Shown here: one piece after another, positions 62,720 to 63,673 of the stretch | How positions within the stretch are numbered: position 1 is the stretch's first letter | Layout: each line of letters begins with the position of its first letter | Source of the DNA: Escherichia phage Ecwhy_1 | Length of the DNA stretch: 64,000 nt | Reading direction: 5' to 3' (one strand) | Sequence record: MH791411.1 | Program-made: the position numbers and the translations under genes | The notes under the pieces: model-generated | Seen by the model: the letters and a program-made list of their open reading frames with translations, nothing else | What the model was told of the DNA's origin: nothing | Databases searched by the model: none

Positions 62720-63673
62720 TTAAAGATTACTAACTAACAATTCTGCACGGTTTCCTACTTGACGATACCATAGAGAATTCTTAATTTCTTTTTTGAACTT
62801 GTTATTATTTTGATTATCAACGCTTTTCCATAATTTATTGAAAGTATTTAACTTATCAACTCCTAATGTAAATGCCATCTCAAATAAAATTCGTTGTTGT
62901 TCAGCCGTAAGGTTTGTTGCATTTCTTTTCTTCAATAATAAAACTAAATCATTATTAGTTCGTTCCATGTCAGACAATAAAAGTTTATGTGCTTGTGACT
63001 TCGTAATACCATTACGATACTTACTTGCATCTGATTCTTTCTTTCCAAGATAATGTCCGTACCCAATAGTGAAGTTACCTTTTATATCACGATACGGATA
63101 AAATTTAGAATTTCGATATGGAACTCCAACTTTCCCACCAAGTAAACGTCGTTTGTTCTTGGACTGAAATTCAATAGAACCTTCAGCTTCTTTGATGTGA
63201 TTGACAATTTCTGGATCTTTATAATCAAACAGTACAGTCACATCTGGTAACAATACGTGCTTCAAATCCTCTTTTGTTGGGATAAAGATACCCTGAGAAG
63301 TATGAAGAGTTGCATTTAAGTTGATGTTCTTCAACAAAATGACATAATCTTCAATCTGTACATTTTTAGGTTTAAATTTCTGTGCAATAGAATAATAACT
63401 ATCACCAGGTTGAACCGTATAATGTTTCTCGCTGCTTGGAACTGCTTTTGGTACTGACACCTGTGGTAGTTCCTGCTTTTGAATTTGCGTAACTTGTGGT
63501 TTTAAATTATGCACCTGACTTTCGTCTAATGATGATGCACGATCACTTTGAGAAAAACCATAAAATCCAATCGCAGCGAATAGGGCTGATGAAACTAATA
63601 CGCCTACGGCAATTTTAGTTTTCAGTTCTTTTTTCGCTTTTTTCAAAACGCCTCCTTTGTTGGTTGTTAACAA
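62720..63673 (-). CDS. Membrane-anchored LysM-GH24 (T4-lysozyme-like) peptidoglycan hydrolase
   Basis: N-terminal basic stretch plus hydrophobic helix IAVGVLVSSALFAAIGFYGF, LysM (YTVQPGDSYYSIAQKF) and GH24 motifs (EAEGS, YRDIKGNFTIGYGH, SLWYRQVGNRAELL). The likely true start is the internal TTG at 63646 after AAAGGAGG. Confidence 0.75.
   Translation of the reverse strand: MLTTNKGGVLKKAKKELKTKIAVGVLVSSALFAAIGFYGFSQSDRASSLDESQVHNLKPQVTQIQKQELPQVSVPKAVPSSEKHYTVQPGDSYYSIAQKFKPKNVQIEDYVILLKNINLNATLHTSQGIFIPTKEDLKHVLLPDVTVLFDYKDPEIVNHIKEAEGSIEFQSKNKRRLLGGKVGVPYRNSKFYPYRDIKGNFTIGYGHYLGKKESDASKYRNGITKSQAHKLLLSDMERTNNDLVLLLKKRNATNLTAEQQRILFEMAFTLGVDKLNTFNKLWKSVDNQNNNKFKKEIKNSLWYRQVGNRAELLVSNL

What the first reader, a model, noticed from the sequence alone, without database searches (positions are those of the whole stretch)
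62720..63673. Signal-anchored LysM-GH24 lysozyme with an internal, better-supported start
A T4-lysozyme-like catalytic domain is fused to a LysM domain and to an N-terminal basic stretch plus a Gly/Ala/Ser-containing hydrophobic helix. The arrangement resembles a signal-anchor-release (SAR) endolysin or a membrane-tethered virion lysin. The best RBS (AAAGGAGG) precedes an internal TTG at 63646, not the annotated start. A small Cys-rich single-TM protein (61233-61421) nearby could be a holin-like partner.
Basis: partly seen in the sequence, partly recalled or inferred. Interest (0 to 1): 0.55.

Follow-up and report, generated by a model that had tools for sequence, protein, structure and literature searches.

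The report
Membrane-anchored LysM lysozyme of a jumbo phage
This gene encodes an exported, membrane-anchored cell-wall-cutting enzyme that giant RaK2/121Q-type coliphages probably use to burst their host; its layout was already described in 2017, and only a conserved RNA element in front of it looks new.

Summary
ORF 62720-63673(-) encodes a basic N-tail, one hydrophobic helix, a linker, a LysM domain and a GH24 (T4-type) lysozyme. The real start is the TTG at 63646, four bases after AAAGGAGG, giving 308 aa.

The window is an Asteriusvirus (97% identical to phage Turkey3). The gene is the ortholog of 121Q gp532, CBB_187, GAP32 gp180 and RaK2 gp506. Public records already annotate the TTG start. 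Buttimer et al. 2017 already described the TM + LysM + lysozyme layout, proposed a signal-arrest-release (SAR) route and reported toxicity on induction.

What I add:
- The Glu/Asp/Thr triad is invariant, but its spacing is E-X31-D-X5-T because of a conserved 23-residue insert.
- The protein has no Cys, and the helix lies about 110 residues from the catalytic domain. Canonical SAR activation is therefore unlikely, although export is very likely.
- The ortholog is absent from phAPEC6 virions.
- The gene is single-copy in all 70 RaK2-like phages found. It sits in an RNA-repair/translation block and is followed by an HPF gene. No recognisable holin lies beside it.
- The Cys-rich ORF occurs only in Asteriusvirus, so it is not an obligate partner.
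- A gene-specific 5' leader element precedes the gene across genera and has no Rfam match.

Verdict: a known gene, correctly read, with an untested mechanism.

The parts
62720..63646 (-). CDS of the TM-LysM-GH24 lysozyme: 308 aa, TTG start at 63646-63644, stop at 62722-62720. Ortholog of 121Q gp532 / CBB_187.
   Evidence: phrog_15410 matches with E 2.3e-157, and its profile begins at residue 11 of the 317-aa ORF.
63647..63673 (-). In-frame 9-codon extension of the longest ORF. It is not coding; it is part of the 5' leader and contains the SD.
   Evidence: The extension is not annotated in the relatives examined, and in CBB it is closed by an in-frame stop.
63651..63658 (-). Shine-Dalgarno sequence AAAGGAGG, 4 nt upstream of the TTG start.
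   Evidence: An AAGGAGG-type SD with a TTG/GTG start is conserved across genera.
63614..63646 (-). Basic cytoplasmic N-tail, MKKAKKELKTK (6 Lys, 1 Glu).
   Evidence: The positive-inside rule implies an N-in topology (inference).
63545..63613 (-). Hydrophobic helix / signal anchor, residues 12-34 (IAVGVLVSSALFAAIGFYGFSQS).
   Evidence: For the best 19-residue window the summed Hessa dG is +1.15 and the G/A/S/T fraction is 47%. L22, A24 and G27 are at least 90% conserved.
63428..63544 (-). Low-complexity Q/P/S/V-rich linker, residues 35-73.
   Evidence: pLDDT is below 50. Length and sequence vary in the alignment.
63281..63427 (-). LysM peptidoglycan-binding domain, residues 74-122.
62723..63217 (-). 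GH24 (T4-type) lysozyme domain, residues 144-308. Catalytic residues: E155 (63184-63182), D187 (63088-63086), T193 (63070-63068).
63098..63178 (-). Family-specific insert between the catalytic Glu and Asp, roughly residues 157-183. Consensus: S.E.QS..KRRLLGGKVG.S..NSKFYPY.
   Evidence: Q161, R166, L168, G171, F182, P184 and Y185 are invariant. AF2 models the insert as extra beta-strands with pLDDT 87-95. It is also present in distant relatives.
63697..63731 (-). Conserved leader element: the motif GTAGAAAGTCC (63731-63721) plus a 10-bp hairpin P1 (63717-63697) with a GCAA-type loop.
63763..63790 (-). Sigma-70-like promoter candidate, TTGATA-N16-TGcTATACT.
   Evidence: Taken alone it is at chance level in this AT-rich DNA. 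It is conserved in 121Q, JNE01 and A4. Equivalent sites with 10 or 11 of 12 consensus matches occur in RaK2, L022, EJP2, Hallingskeid and L025. Consensus-type sites read by eye follow terminator-like hairpins in L018, L020 and L023.
62362..62694 (-). HPF/RaiA-family gene 25 nt downstream, probably co-transcribed with the lysozyme gene.
   Evidence: Pfam PF02482, E 7.4e-11. An HPF gene follows the lysozyme gene, directly or one or two genes on, in most relatives. It follows directly in the distant members P0083 and P0087.

Best explanation
The gene encodes the exported muramidase of RaK2/121Q-type jumbo phages.

Translation starts at the TTG at 63646. The basic tail and single hydrophobic helix act as an uncleaved type II signal anchor. 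The Sec system places the rest of the protein in the periplasm. From there a flexible linker of about 40 residues and a LysM domain bring a catalytically competent GH24 lysozyme onto the peptidoglycan.

Because the enzyme reaches the wall without a holin pore, it most likely serves as the phage's holin-independent endolysin. Outer-membrane disruption would be left to a spanin-like gene pair encoded elsewhere in the genome.

I think its activity is restrained by limited, gene-specifically controlled expression and possibly by the energised membrane. The signs of limited expression are a non-ATG start and a conserved structured leader. I do not think it uses the canonical SAR conformational switch. 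Whether the helix ever leaves the membrane is open.

Shown: the domains, the invariant catalytic residues, the start site, conservation and synteny, and the leader element. Taken from the literature: absence from virions, and toxicity on induction. Inferred: Sec export, topology, the lytic role and the mode of control.
For: Architecture and triad:
- Domains and fold.
- E155/D187/T193 are invariant in 51 orthologs.
- D20 and T26 of T4 lysozyme align to D187 and T193.
- The helix I147-G156 reads IVNHIKEAEG, against T4L IFEMLRIDEG.

Helix and anchor:
- The hydrophobic helix is present at the same position in all 75 full-length orthologs analysed.
- No signal-peptidase site is conserved. The residue aligned to the only candidate -1 position is Y, N, H, I or K in most orthologs.
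- The protein has no Cys, so no lipobox.

Distribution:
- One copy in each of 70 RaK2-like phage records, spanning 9 host genera.

Export is the conserved trait:
- Distant relatives keep the LysM-insert-GH24 part but carry different N-termini. These are a 50-100-aa cytoplasmic domain plus TM (P0080, P0082, P0083, P0094), or a signal-peptide-like N-terminus (P0087, P0081).

Literature:
- phAPEC6 gp293 was not found in virions.
- RaK2 lacks the T4 holin T and the antiholin RI (PMC3622015).
- fEgEco12 has an overlapping FtsB-like / lipoprotein gene pair that looks like spanins, 9.5 kb upstream.

Expression:
- A TTG or GTG start is used in nearly all lineages.
- The leader element is specific to this gene.
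Against: - There is no experimental topology, export or lysis data for any member; the toxicity report is 'data not shown'.
- The gene is not next to any recognisable holin or pinholin. It lies in a block with RNA ligase, a DUF2828 protein, a 2H phosphoesterase, HPF, the CCA-adding enzyme, Nudix and glutaredoxin.
- Its candidate promoters are sigma-70-like, which in T4-type phages suggests early rather than late transcription.
- Each genome also has a 162-aa soluble T4L-like lysozyme with shown muralytic activity (LysUE1, PMC12805682). That enzyme could be the true endolysin.
- No SignalP- or TMHMM-type predictor was available. AF2 gave no confident model for residues 1-71.
- In the window's own sequence, predicted SD masking by the leader is no stronger than in shuffled controls.
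Confidence: 0.6

Rival explanations
1. It is a true SAR endolysin. The weakly hydrophobic helix tethers an inactive enzyme to the inner membrane. Membrane depolarisation, by an unidentified pinholin or spontaneously, releases the helix and the freed enzyme becomes active.
For: The window's helix is about as weakly hydrophobic as two proven SAR domains:
- Window protein: summed dG +1.15, 47% G/A/S/T.
- P1 Lyz: +0.46, 53%.
- R21: +0.78, 63%.
I checked the two reference sequences against PDB 1xjt and 3hde.

Other points:
- L22, A24 and G27 in the helix are at least 90% conserved.
- No T4-type holin is known in the clade.
- The idea was proposed in PMC5259590.
Against: - The helix is about 110 residues from the catalytic domain, so it cannot complete or cage the active site as it does in R21 or P1 Lyz.
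- There is no Cys.
- Spacing is E-X31-D-X5-T, not the E-X8-D-X5-T of class II SAR enzymes.
- Many orthologs have Leu-rich helices with dG of -2 to -3.
- Relatives with long cytoplasmic N-domains or signal-peptide-like N-termini show that a releasable N-terminal anchor is not the conserved feature.
- No pinholin is nearby.
Confidence: 0.22
2. The N-terminus is a cleavable signal peptide. The mature enzyme is a soluble periplasmic LysM-lysozyme, a secreted endolysin like Lys44 of oenophage fOg44.
For: - G30-F31-S32|Q33 satisfies the -3/-1 rule in the window protein (reading of the sequence).
- Two distant relatives, P0087 (..LSHA|N) and P0081 (..TSKA|S), have signal-peptide-like N-termini.
Against: - The uncharged stretch is 23 residues, which is long for a signal-peptide h-region (established knowledge).
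- The candidate -1 residue is Y, N, H, I or K in most orthologs.
- No predictor could be run.
Confidence: 0.08
3. It is not the lysis enzyme. It is an early, membrane-anchored wall-remodelling or superinfection-related muramidase, and the 162-aa soluble lysozyme is the endolysin.
For: - Sigma-70-type promoter candidates, each following a terminator-like hairpin in L018, L020 and L023.
- Placement among RNA-repair and translation genes and linkage to HPF.
- An active soluble paralog exists.
Against: - No holin has been identified that could let a soluble endolysin out.
- Induction is toxic.
- No precedent is known to me for such a role for a phage GH24.
- T4 gene e is also transcribed early yet acts late (from memory, McPheeters 1986).
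Confidence: 0.1
4. It is a virion-associated (ejected or tail) lysin tethered by its helix.
For: Some records annotate it as 'tail lysozyme' or 'baseplate hub subunit' (Munch, SE_PL, G17). It is weakly similar to internal-virion-protein lysozyme domains.
Against: - It was not detected in phAPEC6 virions, whereas the 96-kDa hub lysozyme was.
- It lies outside the structural gene modules.
- A separate hub lysozyme exists.
Confidence: 0.03

Closest known systems
CBB_187 / 121Q gp532 / GAP32 gp180 / RaK2 gp506 (Buttimer et al. 2017, PMC5259590; phrog_15410)
   Same: Orthologous: 81% protein identity to 121Q gp532 over the aligned residues 24-311, and about 46-55% to the GAP32, CBB and RaK2 orthologs. 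It has the same TM + LysM + lysozyme layout, the same TTG start and the same synteny.
   Different: Nothing essential. This copy is 97.5% identical to those of TH47 and JNE01. It lies in a genome 97% identical to Turkey3 over 58000-64000, where the gene is annotated 'endolysin'.
SAR endolysins R21 (phage 21) and P1 Lyz
   Same: GH24 fold with a Glu/Asp/Thr triad. An N-terminal, weakly hydrophobic, apparently uncleaved helix, with hydrophobicity similar in the window protein. Holin-independent export is expected.
   Different: - The helix is not contiguous with the catalytic domain; a linker, LysM and a second linker intervene.
- A 23-residue insert lies between Glu and Asp.
- There is no Cys.
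- There is no adjacent pinholin or spanin cassette.
- The hydrophobicity of the helix is not conserved among orthologs.
T4 lysozyme (gene e) and the gp5 lysozyme domain
   Same: Same fold (Foldseek probability 1.0, TM-score normalised to the target about 0.65). D20 and T26 align. Possibly a similar logic of translational control: T4 early e transcripts mask the RBS in a hairpin (from memory, not checked here).
   Different: T4 E is soluble, cytoplasmic and holin-dependent, with no LysM domain, no TM helix and E-X8-D spacing.
Modular Gram-negative endolysins with a wall-binding domain (phiKZ KZ144, EL188)
   Same: A wall-binding domain lies N-terminal to the catalytic domain, which is unusual for phages of Gram-negative hosts (noted).
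   Different: KZ144 and EL188 use a different binding domain and a transglycosylase, and they have no TM helix.
Secreted endolysins of Gram-positive phages (Lys44 of fOg44)
   Same: Sec export without a holin, with activity held back until the membrane is de-energised (from memory).
   Different: Those enzymes have cleaved signal peptides, and the host envelope is different.

Membership tests
GH24 / Phage_lysozyme (PF00959), T4 type | Profile match above the curated cut-off | tested here: met
   38.8 bits against a cut-off of 22.3. phmmer matches T4L with E about 1e-6. hhalign probability is 98%.
GH24 / Phage_lysozyme (PF00959), T4 type | Catalytic Glu, Asp and Thr present | tested here: met
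   E155, D187 and T193 are invariant in 51 orthologs. The Asp and Thr align to D20 and T26. The Glu is assigned from the motif, its invariance and the AF2 helix 145-156, not from a sequence alignment.
GH24 / Phage_lysozyme (PF00959), T4 type | T4L fold | tested here: met
   Foldseek against the PDB: T4L entries at E about 1e-6, probability 1.0, TM-score normalised to the target 0.60-0.66. pLDDT is about 90-97 over most of residues 145-306.
LysM (PF01476) | Profile match and beta-alpha-alpha-beta fold | tested here: met
   Pfam 21.4 bits against 20.9, covering only the first 17 profile positions. There is a full-length match to the 4s3j LysM domain. AF2 gives strand 75-77, helices 84-91 and 98-108, and strand 119-121.
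RaK2-like phage TM-LysM-lysozyme (phrog_15410; 121Q gp532 orthologs) | Full-length similarity, single copy, conserved synteny | tested here: met
   phrog_15410 E 2.3e-157 across the whole profile. 70 records hold the N-terminal half; 69 have a single place and one (CMSTMSU) has two. Synteny.
SAR endolysin | N-terminal weakly hydrophobic G/A/S/T-rich TMD without a signal-peptidase site | tested here: inconclusive
   The window protein scores dG +1.15 with 47% G/A/S/T, against +0.46/53% for P1 Lyz and +0.78/63% for R21. Orthologs range from -3.0 to +5.1, with a median of 37% G/A/S/T. The scale is crude and no dedicated predictor was available.
SAR endolysin | TMD adjoins the catalytic domain and takes part in activation (refolding as in R21, or disulfide isomerisation as in P1 Lyz) | tested here: not met
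   About 110 residues (linker, LysM, linker) separate the helix from the GH24 domain. The protein has zero Cys.
SAR endolysin | E-X8-D/C-X5-T catalytic spacing (class I/II) | tested here: not met
   The spacing is E155-X31-D187-X5-T193. The canonical motif is as quoted.
SAR endolysin | Sec-dependent export, membrane tethering and PMF-dependent release | not testable with these tools
   This needs fractionation, energy poisons and SecA inhibition.
SAR endolysin | Encoded with a pinholin/holin and spanins in a lysis cassette | tested here: not met
   The neighbours are RNA-repair and translation genes. A spanin-like pair lies 9.5 kb away in fEgEco12.
Virion-associated lysin | Present in purified virions | tested here: not met
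   Literature evidence on the ortholog: phAPEC6 gp293 was not detected by ESI-MS/MS, whereas gp241 was.
Holin (claimed for ORF 61233-61421) | Holin family match, co-occurrence with the endolysin, at least one TMD with a holin-like topology | tested here: not met
   No Pfam hit. It matches phrog_4189, of unknown function. It has one N-terminal TMD. It is found in 35 records (Asteriusvirus only) against 70 for the lysozyme.

The most novel reading that the evidence does not exclude
The conserved gene-specific leader is a cis-acting RNA switch or operator that licenses translation of an exported, holin-independent endolysin. The leader consists of a short hairpin, the single-stranded motif (U)GUAGRAAGUCC, a 10-bp hairpin with a GCAA-type loop, and then, in most lineages, a stretch that pairs with the SD or the start codon. 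On this reading, lysis timing in RaK2-like jumbo phages is set mainly at the level of translation, by a phage factor or a cell-state signal, rather than by a holin clock.
Probability: 0.15. Interest if true: 0.6.

Novelty: already known. Interest (0 to 1): 0.3.

Why it matters
How giant RaK2/121Q-type phages lyse their hosts is unresolved. No study of these phages that I read pins down a holin, and the genomes carry three lysozymes.

If this exported, LysM-bearing enzyme is the endolysin, it would be a natural Gram-negative endolysin that reaches the wall on its own and carries a wall-binding module. That is of practical interest for enzyme-based antibacterials. It would also extend the range of export-based lysis beyond the compact SAR enzymes.

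The leader element would give a handle on how such a dangerous protein is kept in check during a long infection cycle.

As a scan finding, though, it re-discovers an annotated and published gene.

Tried and rejected
1. Other GH24 copies in the window: none. tblastn gave only the gene itself plus a chance-level hit at 18138-18203 that lies in an unrelated structural ORF.
2. The leader as a known RNA family: no Rfam match at E up to 10 for 63560-63860, and none at gathering score in the whole window. No tRNA genes.
3. The leader motif as a general phage promoter: TACTGTAGAAAGTCC with up to 3 mismatches occurs at chance level in 64 kb. The covariance model hits once per locus.
4. A leader peptide: a 12-codon uORF (ATG at 63718) exists in the window, but it is absent or different in GAP32, EJP2 and CBB (reading). 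Rejected.
5. Universal SD sequestration: MFE folds pair the SD in every lineage. Ensemble accessibility is clearly below shuffled controls only in CBB, GAP32, XbC2, Kaldavass, Yen9-03, Hallingskeid, EJP2, L022 and L025. It is not below controls in the window (0.51 against 0.34), L016, L017 or L019. I do not claim it for this window.
6. The sigma-70 promoter scan alone: 18 sites found against 21 expected, so uninformative without the cross-species comparison.
7. Sequence-based alignment of the catalytic Glu to T4L E11 failed because of the insert. phmmer, Pfam and hhalign all start at T4L residue 16-17.
9. Transcriptome data for enterobacterial RaK2-like phages: none found in the library. PA5oct has RNA-seq, but none of the peptidoglycan-degrading proteins its paper lists matches this architecture.
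Full report
**What is in the sequence**

The minus strand carries an ORF from 63673 to 62720, 317 aa from the first TTG. Nine codons downstream, AAAGGAGG (63658-63651) is followed by CGTT and a TTG at 63646-63644. No Shine-Dalgarno sequence precedes the upstream TTG.

The 308-aa product has these parts:
- a basic tail, MKKAKKELKTK;
- a 23-residue uncharged stretch, IAVGVLVSSALFAAIGFYGFSQS;
- a Q/P/S/V-rich linker;
- a LysM domain;
- a short second linker;
- a GH24 lysozyme domain.

Pfam reports Phage_lysozyme at 38.8 bits (cut-off 22.3). 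It also reports a partial LysM match just above its cut-off. The LysM stretch aligns over its full length to the LysM domain of PDB 4s3j. AlphaFold2, run with 51 orthologs, models it as beta-alpha-alpha-beta with pLDDT about 90. The catalytic domain (145-306) has pLDDT of about 90-97 over most of its length. Residues 1-71 are not modelled with any confidence. Foldseek places the model on T4 lysozyme: probability 1.0, TM-score normalised to the target about 0.65. The description in the finding is therefore correct.

**Provenance and identity**

The protein is 97.5% identical to those of coliphages TH47 and JNE01. It is about 81% identical to 121Q gp532 and its PBECO4 counterpart. The last 6 kb of the window is 97.3% identical to phage Turkey3, where the gene is annotated 'endolysin'. 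The window is thus an Asteriusvirus, a RaK2-like jumbo myovirus.

A tblastn search with only the N-terminal half (helix, LysM, start of the catalytic domain) finds 70 phage records, nearly all with one copy. They are all RaK2-like phages. Their hosts are Escherichia, Klebsiella, Salmonella, Erwinia, Yersinia, Serratia, Xanthomonas, Pectobacterium and Cronobacter.

The full-length query finds three places per genome. This matches the published description of three lysozymes in these phages:
- this protein;
- a 162-aa T4L-like protein in the baseplate cluster;
- the roughly 890-aa baseplate hub (PMC3622015; PMC5259590).

The 162-aa paralog of phage UE-S1 has been purified. It is muralytic in the presence of EDTA (PMC12805682).

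**Prior description**

Buttimer et al. 2017 state that CBB_187 is the predicted endolysin, with homologs GAP32 gp180, 121Q gp532 and RaK2 gp506. They describe an N-terminal transmembrane domain, a LysM-like wall-binding domain and a C-terminal lysozyme domain. They point out that such an N-terminal TMD is known from signal-arrest-release endolysins.

**Start codon**

Public annotations of 121Q, JNE01, phAPEC6, fEgEco12 and A4 all give a 927-nt CDS, which is the 63646-equivalent start. CBB_187 is listed with a TTG start. The phrog_15410 profile begins at residue 11 of the long ORF.

Across genera the same arrangement recurs: AAGGAGG or a close variant, about four bases, then a start codon. The codon is TTG in Asteriusvirus, Mimasvirus and Eneladusvirus, GTG in EJP2, Hallingskeid, Munch and several metagenomic lineages, and ATG only in the RaK2 lineage (RaK2 and L022). 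In CBB an in-frame TAA lies four codons upstream, so no extension is possible there. The 'internal' start is correct, and the near-universal use of a weak start codon is itself notable.

**Catalytic domain**

In an alignment of 51 orthologs (40-94% identity to the query), E155, D187 and T193 are invariant. hhalign against T4 lysozyme aligns D187 and T193 with D20 and T26. Sequence methods do not reach the Glu. However, the AF2 helix 145-156 reads IVNHIKEAEG against T4L IFEMLRIDEG, and E155-G156 are invariant.

The spacing is E-X31-D-X5-T instead of the usual E-X8-D-X5-T. The extra 23 residues are strongly conserved, with Q161, R166, L168, G171, F182, P184 and Y185 invariant. AF2 models them confidently as additional beta-strands. 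The insert persists in the most distant relatives found. It is a hallmark of the family, and I could not assign it a role.

**The hydrophobic helix: SAR domain, stable anchor or signal peptide?**

No dedicated predictor was available. I summed Hessa biological-hydrophobicity values over the best 19-residue window.

| Protein | Summed dG | G/A/S/T fraction |
|---|---|---|
| Window protein | +1.15 | 47% |
| P1 Lyz (SAR) | +0.46 | 53% |
| R21 (SAR) | +0.78 | 63% |
| 75 orthologs | -3.0 to +5.1 (median 0.0) | median 37% |

I confirmed the two reference sequences against PDB 1xjt and 3hde. So this copy looks SAR-like. Many orthologs, however, are Leu-rich (for example VFLLVGFLLLAAAIGFVGF), so marginal hydrophobicity is not a conserved property.

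A possible signal-peptidase site, GFS|Q, exists in the window protein. In most orthologs the aligned -1 residue is Y, N, H, I or K. There is no Cys anywhere, so neither a lipobox nor P1-type disulfide caging is possible.

The helix lies about 110 residues from the catalytic domain. It therefore cannot complete the active site in the way the R21 SAR domain does.

An exhaustive HMMER search of 1.84 billion representatives, using residues 1-187, found a few more distant members that keep LysM, the insert and GH24 but differ at the N-terminus. P0080, P0082, P0083 and P0094 have 50-100 cytoplasmic residues before the TM helix. P0087 and P0081 have signal-peptide-like N-termini. P0083 and P0087 are each followed directly by an HPF gene, and P0087 is also preceded by the DUF2828 gene. 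At least that much of the syntenic block is kept.

What is conserved, then, is delivery of LysM-GH24 to the periplasm, not a releasable N-terminal anchor. This is why I rank 'exported, anchored muramidase' above 'canonical SAR endolysin'.

**Genomic context**

The order is conserved from Asteriusvirus to distant metagenomic relatives:
- RNA ligase;
- a DUF2828 protein, annotated 'RNA-binding protein' in CBB and GAP32;
- a 40-54-aa tail-anchored membrane protein;
- a 2H phosphoesterase;
- a protein of about 170-200 aa;
- a gap of roughly 90-250 nt;
- the lysozyme;
- HPF/RaiA;
- a few small genes;
- the CCA-adding enzyme, Nudix and glutaredoxin.

This is seen. No recognisable holin or pinholin is adjacent. 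RaK2 lacks the T4 holin T and the antiholin RI. In fEgEco12, an overlapping pair of an FtsB-like gene and a small lipoprotein gene, 9.5 kb upstream, has the look of i- and o-spanins. That position lies beyond the end of this window. The phAPEC6 ortholog gp293 was not found in virions by mass spectrometry, whereas the hub lysozyme was. This argues against a virion role.

**The proposed holin-like partner**

ORF 61233-61421 encodes a 61-62-aa protein with one N-terminal TM helix and six Cys. It has no Pfam hit and belongs to phrog_4189, of unknown function. tblastn finds it in only 35 records, all Asteriusvirus-type, against 70 for the lysozyme. It lies in a variable stretch that contains paralogous genes: 60420-60863 with 60829-61242, and 60286-60408 with 61418-61543. 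Nothing supports a holin role.

The small tail-anchored membrane protein upstream co-occurs with the lysozyme far more widely. It lies outside the window, and its function is equally unknown.

**A conserved leader element**

This element lies outside the stated coordinates. The gap upstream of the gene contains the motif GTAGAAAGTCC (63731-63721), followed by a hairpin (63717-63697, GAGGCTTT-TGCAAA-TGGCCTC).

*Conservation and specificity.*
- The motif and the hairpin recur in Asteriusvirus, Mimasvirus, Eneladusvirus, the Munch-type phages, EJP2, Hallingskeid and several metagenomic lineages. RaK2 has the variant TTGTTAAGTCCATAGTGGC...GCCAC.
- Over 22 distinct sequences the 10-bp stem is 94% paired, against 40-58% when the 3' strand is slid by 1-3 columns. 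Two pairs show compensatory changes: A-U / C-G / U-A and G-C / A-U. That alignment was fitted to the model and the sequences are related, so this is supportive rather than conclusive.
- A covariance model of the element hits once in the 64-kb window and once per related locus, always just upstream of this gene.
- A pattern scan of 2.9 million IMG/VR contigs gave 14 hits. In all of them the lysozyme ortholog begins 87-108 nt downstream of the element.
- Rfam has no matching family.

*Lineage differences.*
- In most non-Asteriusvirus lineages a second short hairpin lies immediately 5' of the motif. It varies in a pair-preserving way: TAGTA/TACTA, TAGTC/GACTA, CTAGTG/CACTAG, TTAACTC/GAGTTAA (reading).
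- Three lineages (L018, L020, L023) lack the element. By eye they have a terminator-like hairpin, a consensus-type sigma-70 promoter and a short leader.
- Sigma-70-like sites also precede the element in the window (TTGATA-N16-TGcTATACT, 63790-63763), RaK2, L022, EJP2, Hallingskeid and L025.

*Does the leader mask the ribosome-binding site?*
- MFE folds pair the SD or start codon with an upstream complementary stretch in every lineage, and the partner sequences differ between lineages.
- In ensemble calculations the masking clearly exceeds that of shuffled controls only in about nine lineages. It does not in the window itself.

I therefore report a real, gene-specific, apparently undescribed leader element. 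I treat translational control as a hypothesis. It recalls the RBS-masking hairpin of early T4 gene e transcripts. That comparison is from memory and was not checked here.

**Most likely mechanism**

Translation from the TTG gives a type II membrane protein, with its basic tail in the cytoplasm and its helix in the membrane. The Sec system places the linker, LysM and GH24 parts in the periplasm. LysM holds the enzyme on the sacculus and the GH24 domain cleaves glycan strands.

Because no holin pore is needed, synthesis itself is dangerous. That fits the reported toxicity, the weak start codon and the dedicated leader.

I put about 0.6 on this exported-endolysin reading. Strict SAR behaviour gets about 0.2, a cleaved secreted form about 0.1, a non-lytic early role about 0.1 and a virion role about 0.03.

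**Novelty and score**

The gene, its architecture, its start and the SAR hypothesis are all already in GenBank and in the literature. The finding is correct but not new. What may be new is:
- the E-X31-D insert as a hallmark of the family;
- the variability of the export device among relatives;
- the deep linkage to HPF;
- the leader element.

None of these has been tested experimentally. Interest is about 0.3.

Noticed in passing
window 63697-63731 (-), with promoter-like site 63763-63790 (-): A gene-specific conserved leader element: the motif GTAGAAAGTCC plus a 10-bp hairpin with a GCAA-type loop. It lies upstream of the lysozyme gene across several genera of RaK2-like phages. It has no Rfam match, occurs once per genome region examined, and in all 14 IMG/VR pattern hits the lysozyme ortholog begins 87-108 nt downstream.
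   Followed up: yes
window 62362-62694 (-): An HPF/RaiA-family (ribosome hibernation factor) gene lies 25 nt downstream of the lysozyme stop. An HPF gene follows the lysozyme gene in most relatives and follows directly in the distant members P0083 and P0087 (L041, L042). The two genes are probably co-transcribed. The meaning of a lysozyme-HPF pair is unknown.
   Followed up: partly
L005 3654-3794, L006 3654-3794, L001 5034-5165 and equivalents (outside the window, beyond 64000): A conserved 40-54-aa protein with a cytoplasmic N-part, an NP motif and a C-terminal TM helix. It keeps synteny about 1.2 kb upstream of the lysozyme in most lineages examined. It is a better candidate membrane partner than the Cys-rich ORF, but it has no known function.
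   Followed up: partly
L026 10243-10928 (fEgEco12 g251/g252), about 9.5 kb upstream of the lysozyme; outside the window: An overlapping pair of an 'FtsB-like' gene and a small 'lipoprotein' gene next to an acyl-carrier-like gene. It looks like an i-spanin/o-spanin pair.
   Followed up: no
window 60286-62307 (-): A variable array of small genes with internal paralogy. ORFs 60420-60863 and 60829-61242 are 39% identical over 49 aa. The two roughly 40-aa ORFs 60286-60408 and 61418-61543 are 68% identical. The number and order of these genes differ between Asteriusvirus genomes.
   Followed up: partly
window 61233-61421 (-): A Cys-rich (6 Cys) 61-62-aa protein with one TM helix, ortholog of 121Q gp535 and member of phrog_4189. 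It is restricted to Asteriusvirus-type genomes.
   Followed up: yes
window 63814-64000 (-), cut by the window end: The C-terminal end of the 121Q gp531 ortholog. It ends ...HITIGRTYYD. Its counterparts in L017 and L019 hit Pfam 2H-SAK (2H phosphoesterase). With the RNA ligase, the DUF2828 protein and the CCA-adding enzyme nearby, this suggests an RNA-repair module.
   Followed up: partly
window 62326-62353 (+ strand coordinates): An 11-bp inverted repeat (AAAGGGACAGA...TCTGTCCCTTT) in the gap after the HPF gene. It is terminator-like on the + strand, and its complement may terminate the lysozyme-HPF transcript on the - strand.
   Followed up: no
window 58649-60284 (-): A CCA-adding tRNA nucleotidyltransferase (59169-60284) and a Nudix hydrolase (58649-59062), as in all relatives. 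No tRNA genes and no Rfam families occur anywhere in the 64-kb window.
   Followed up: partly
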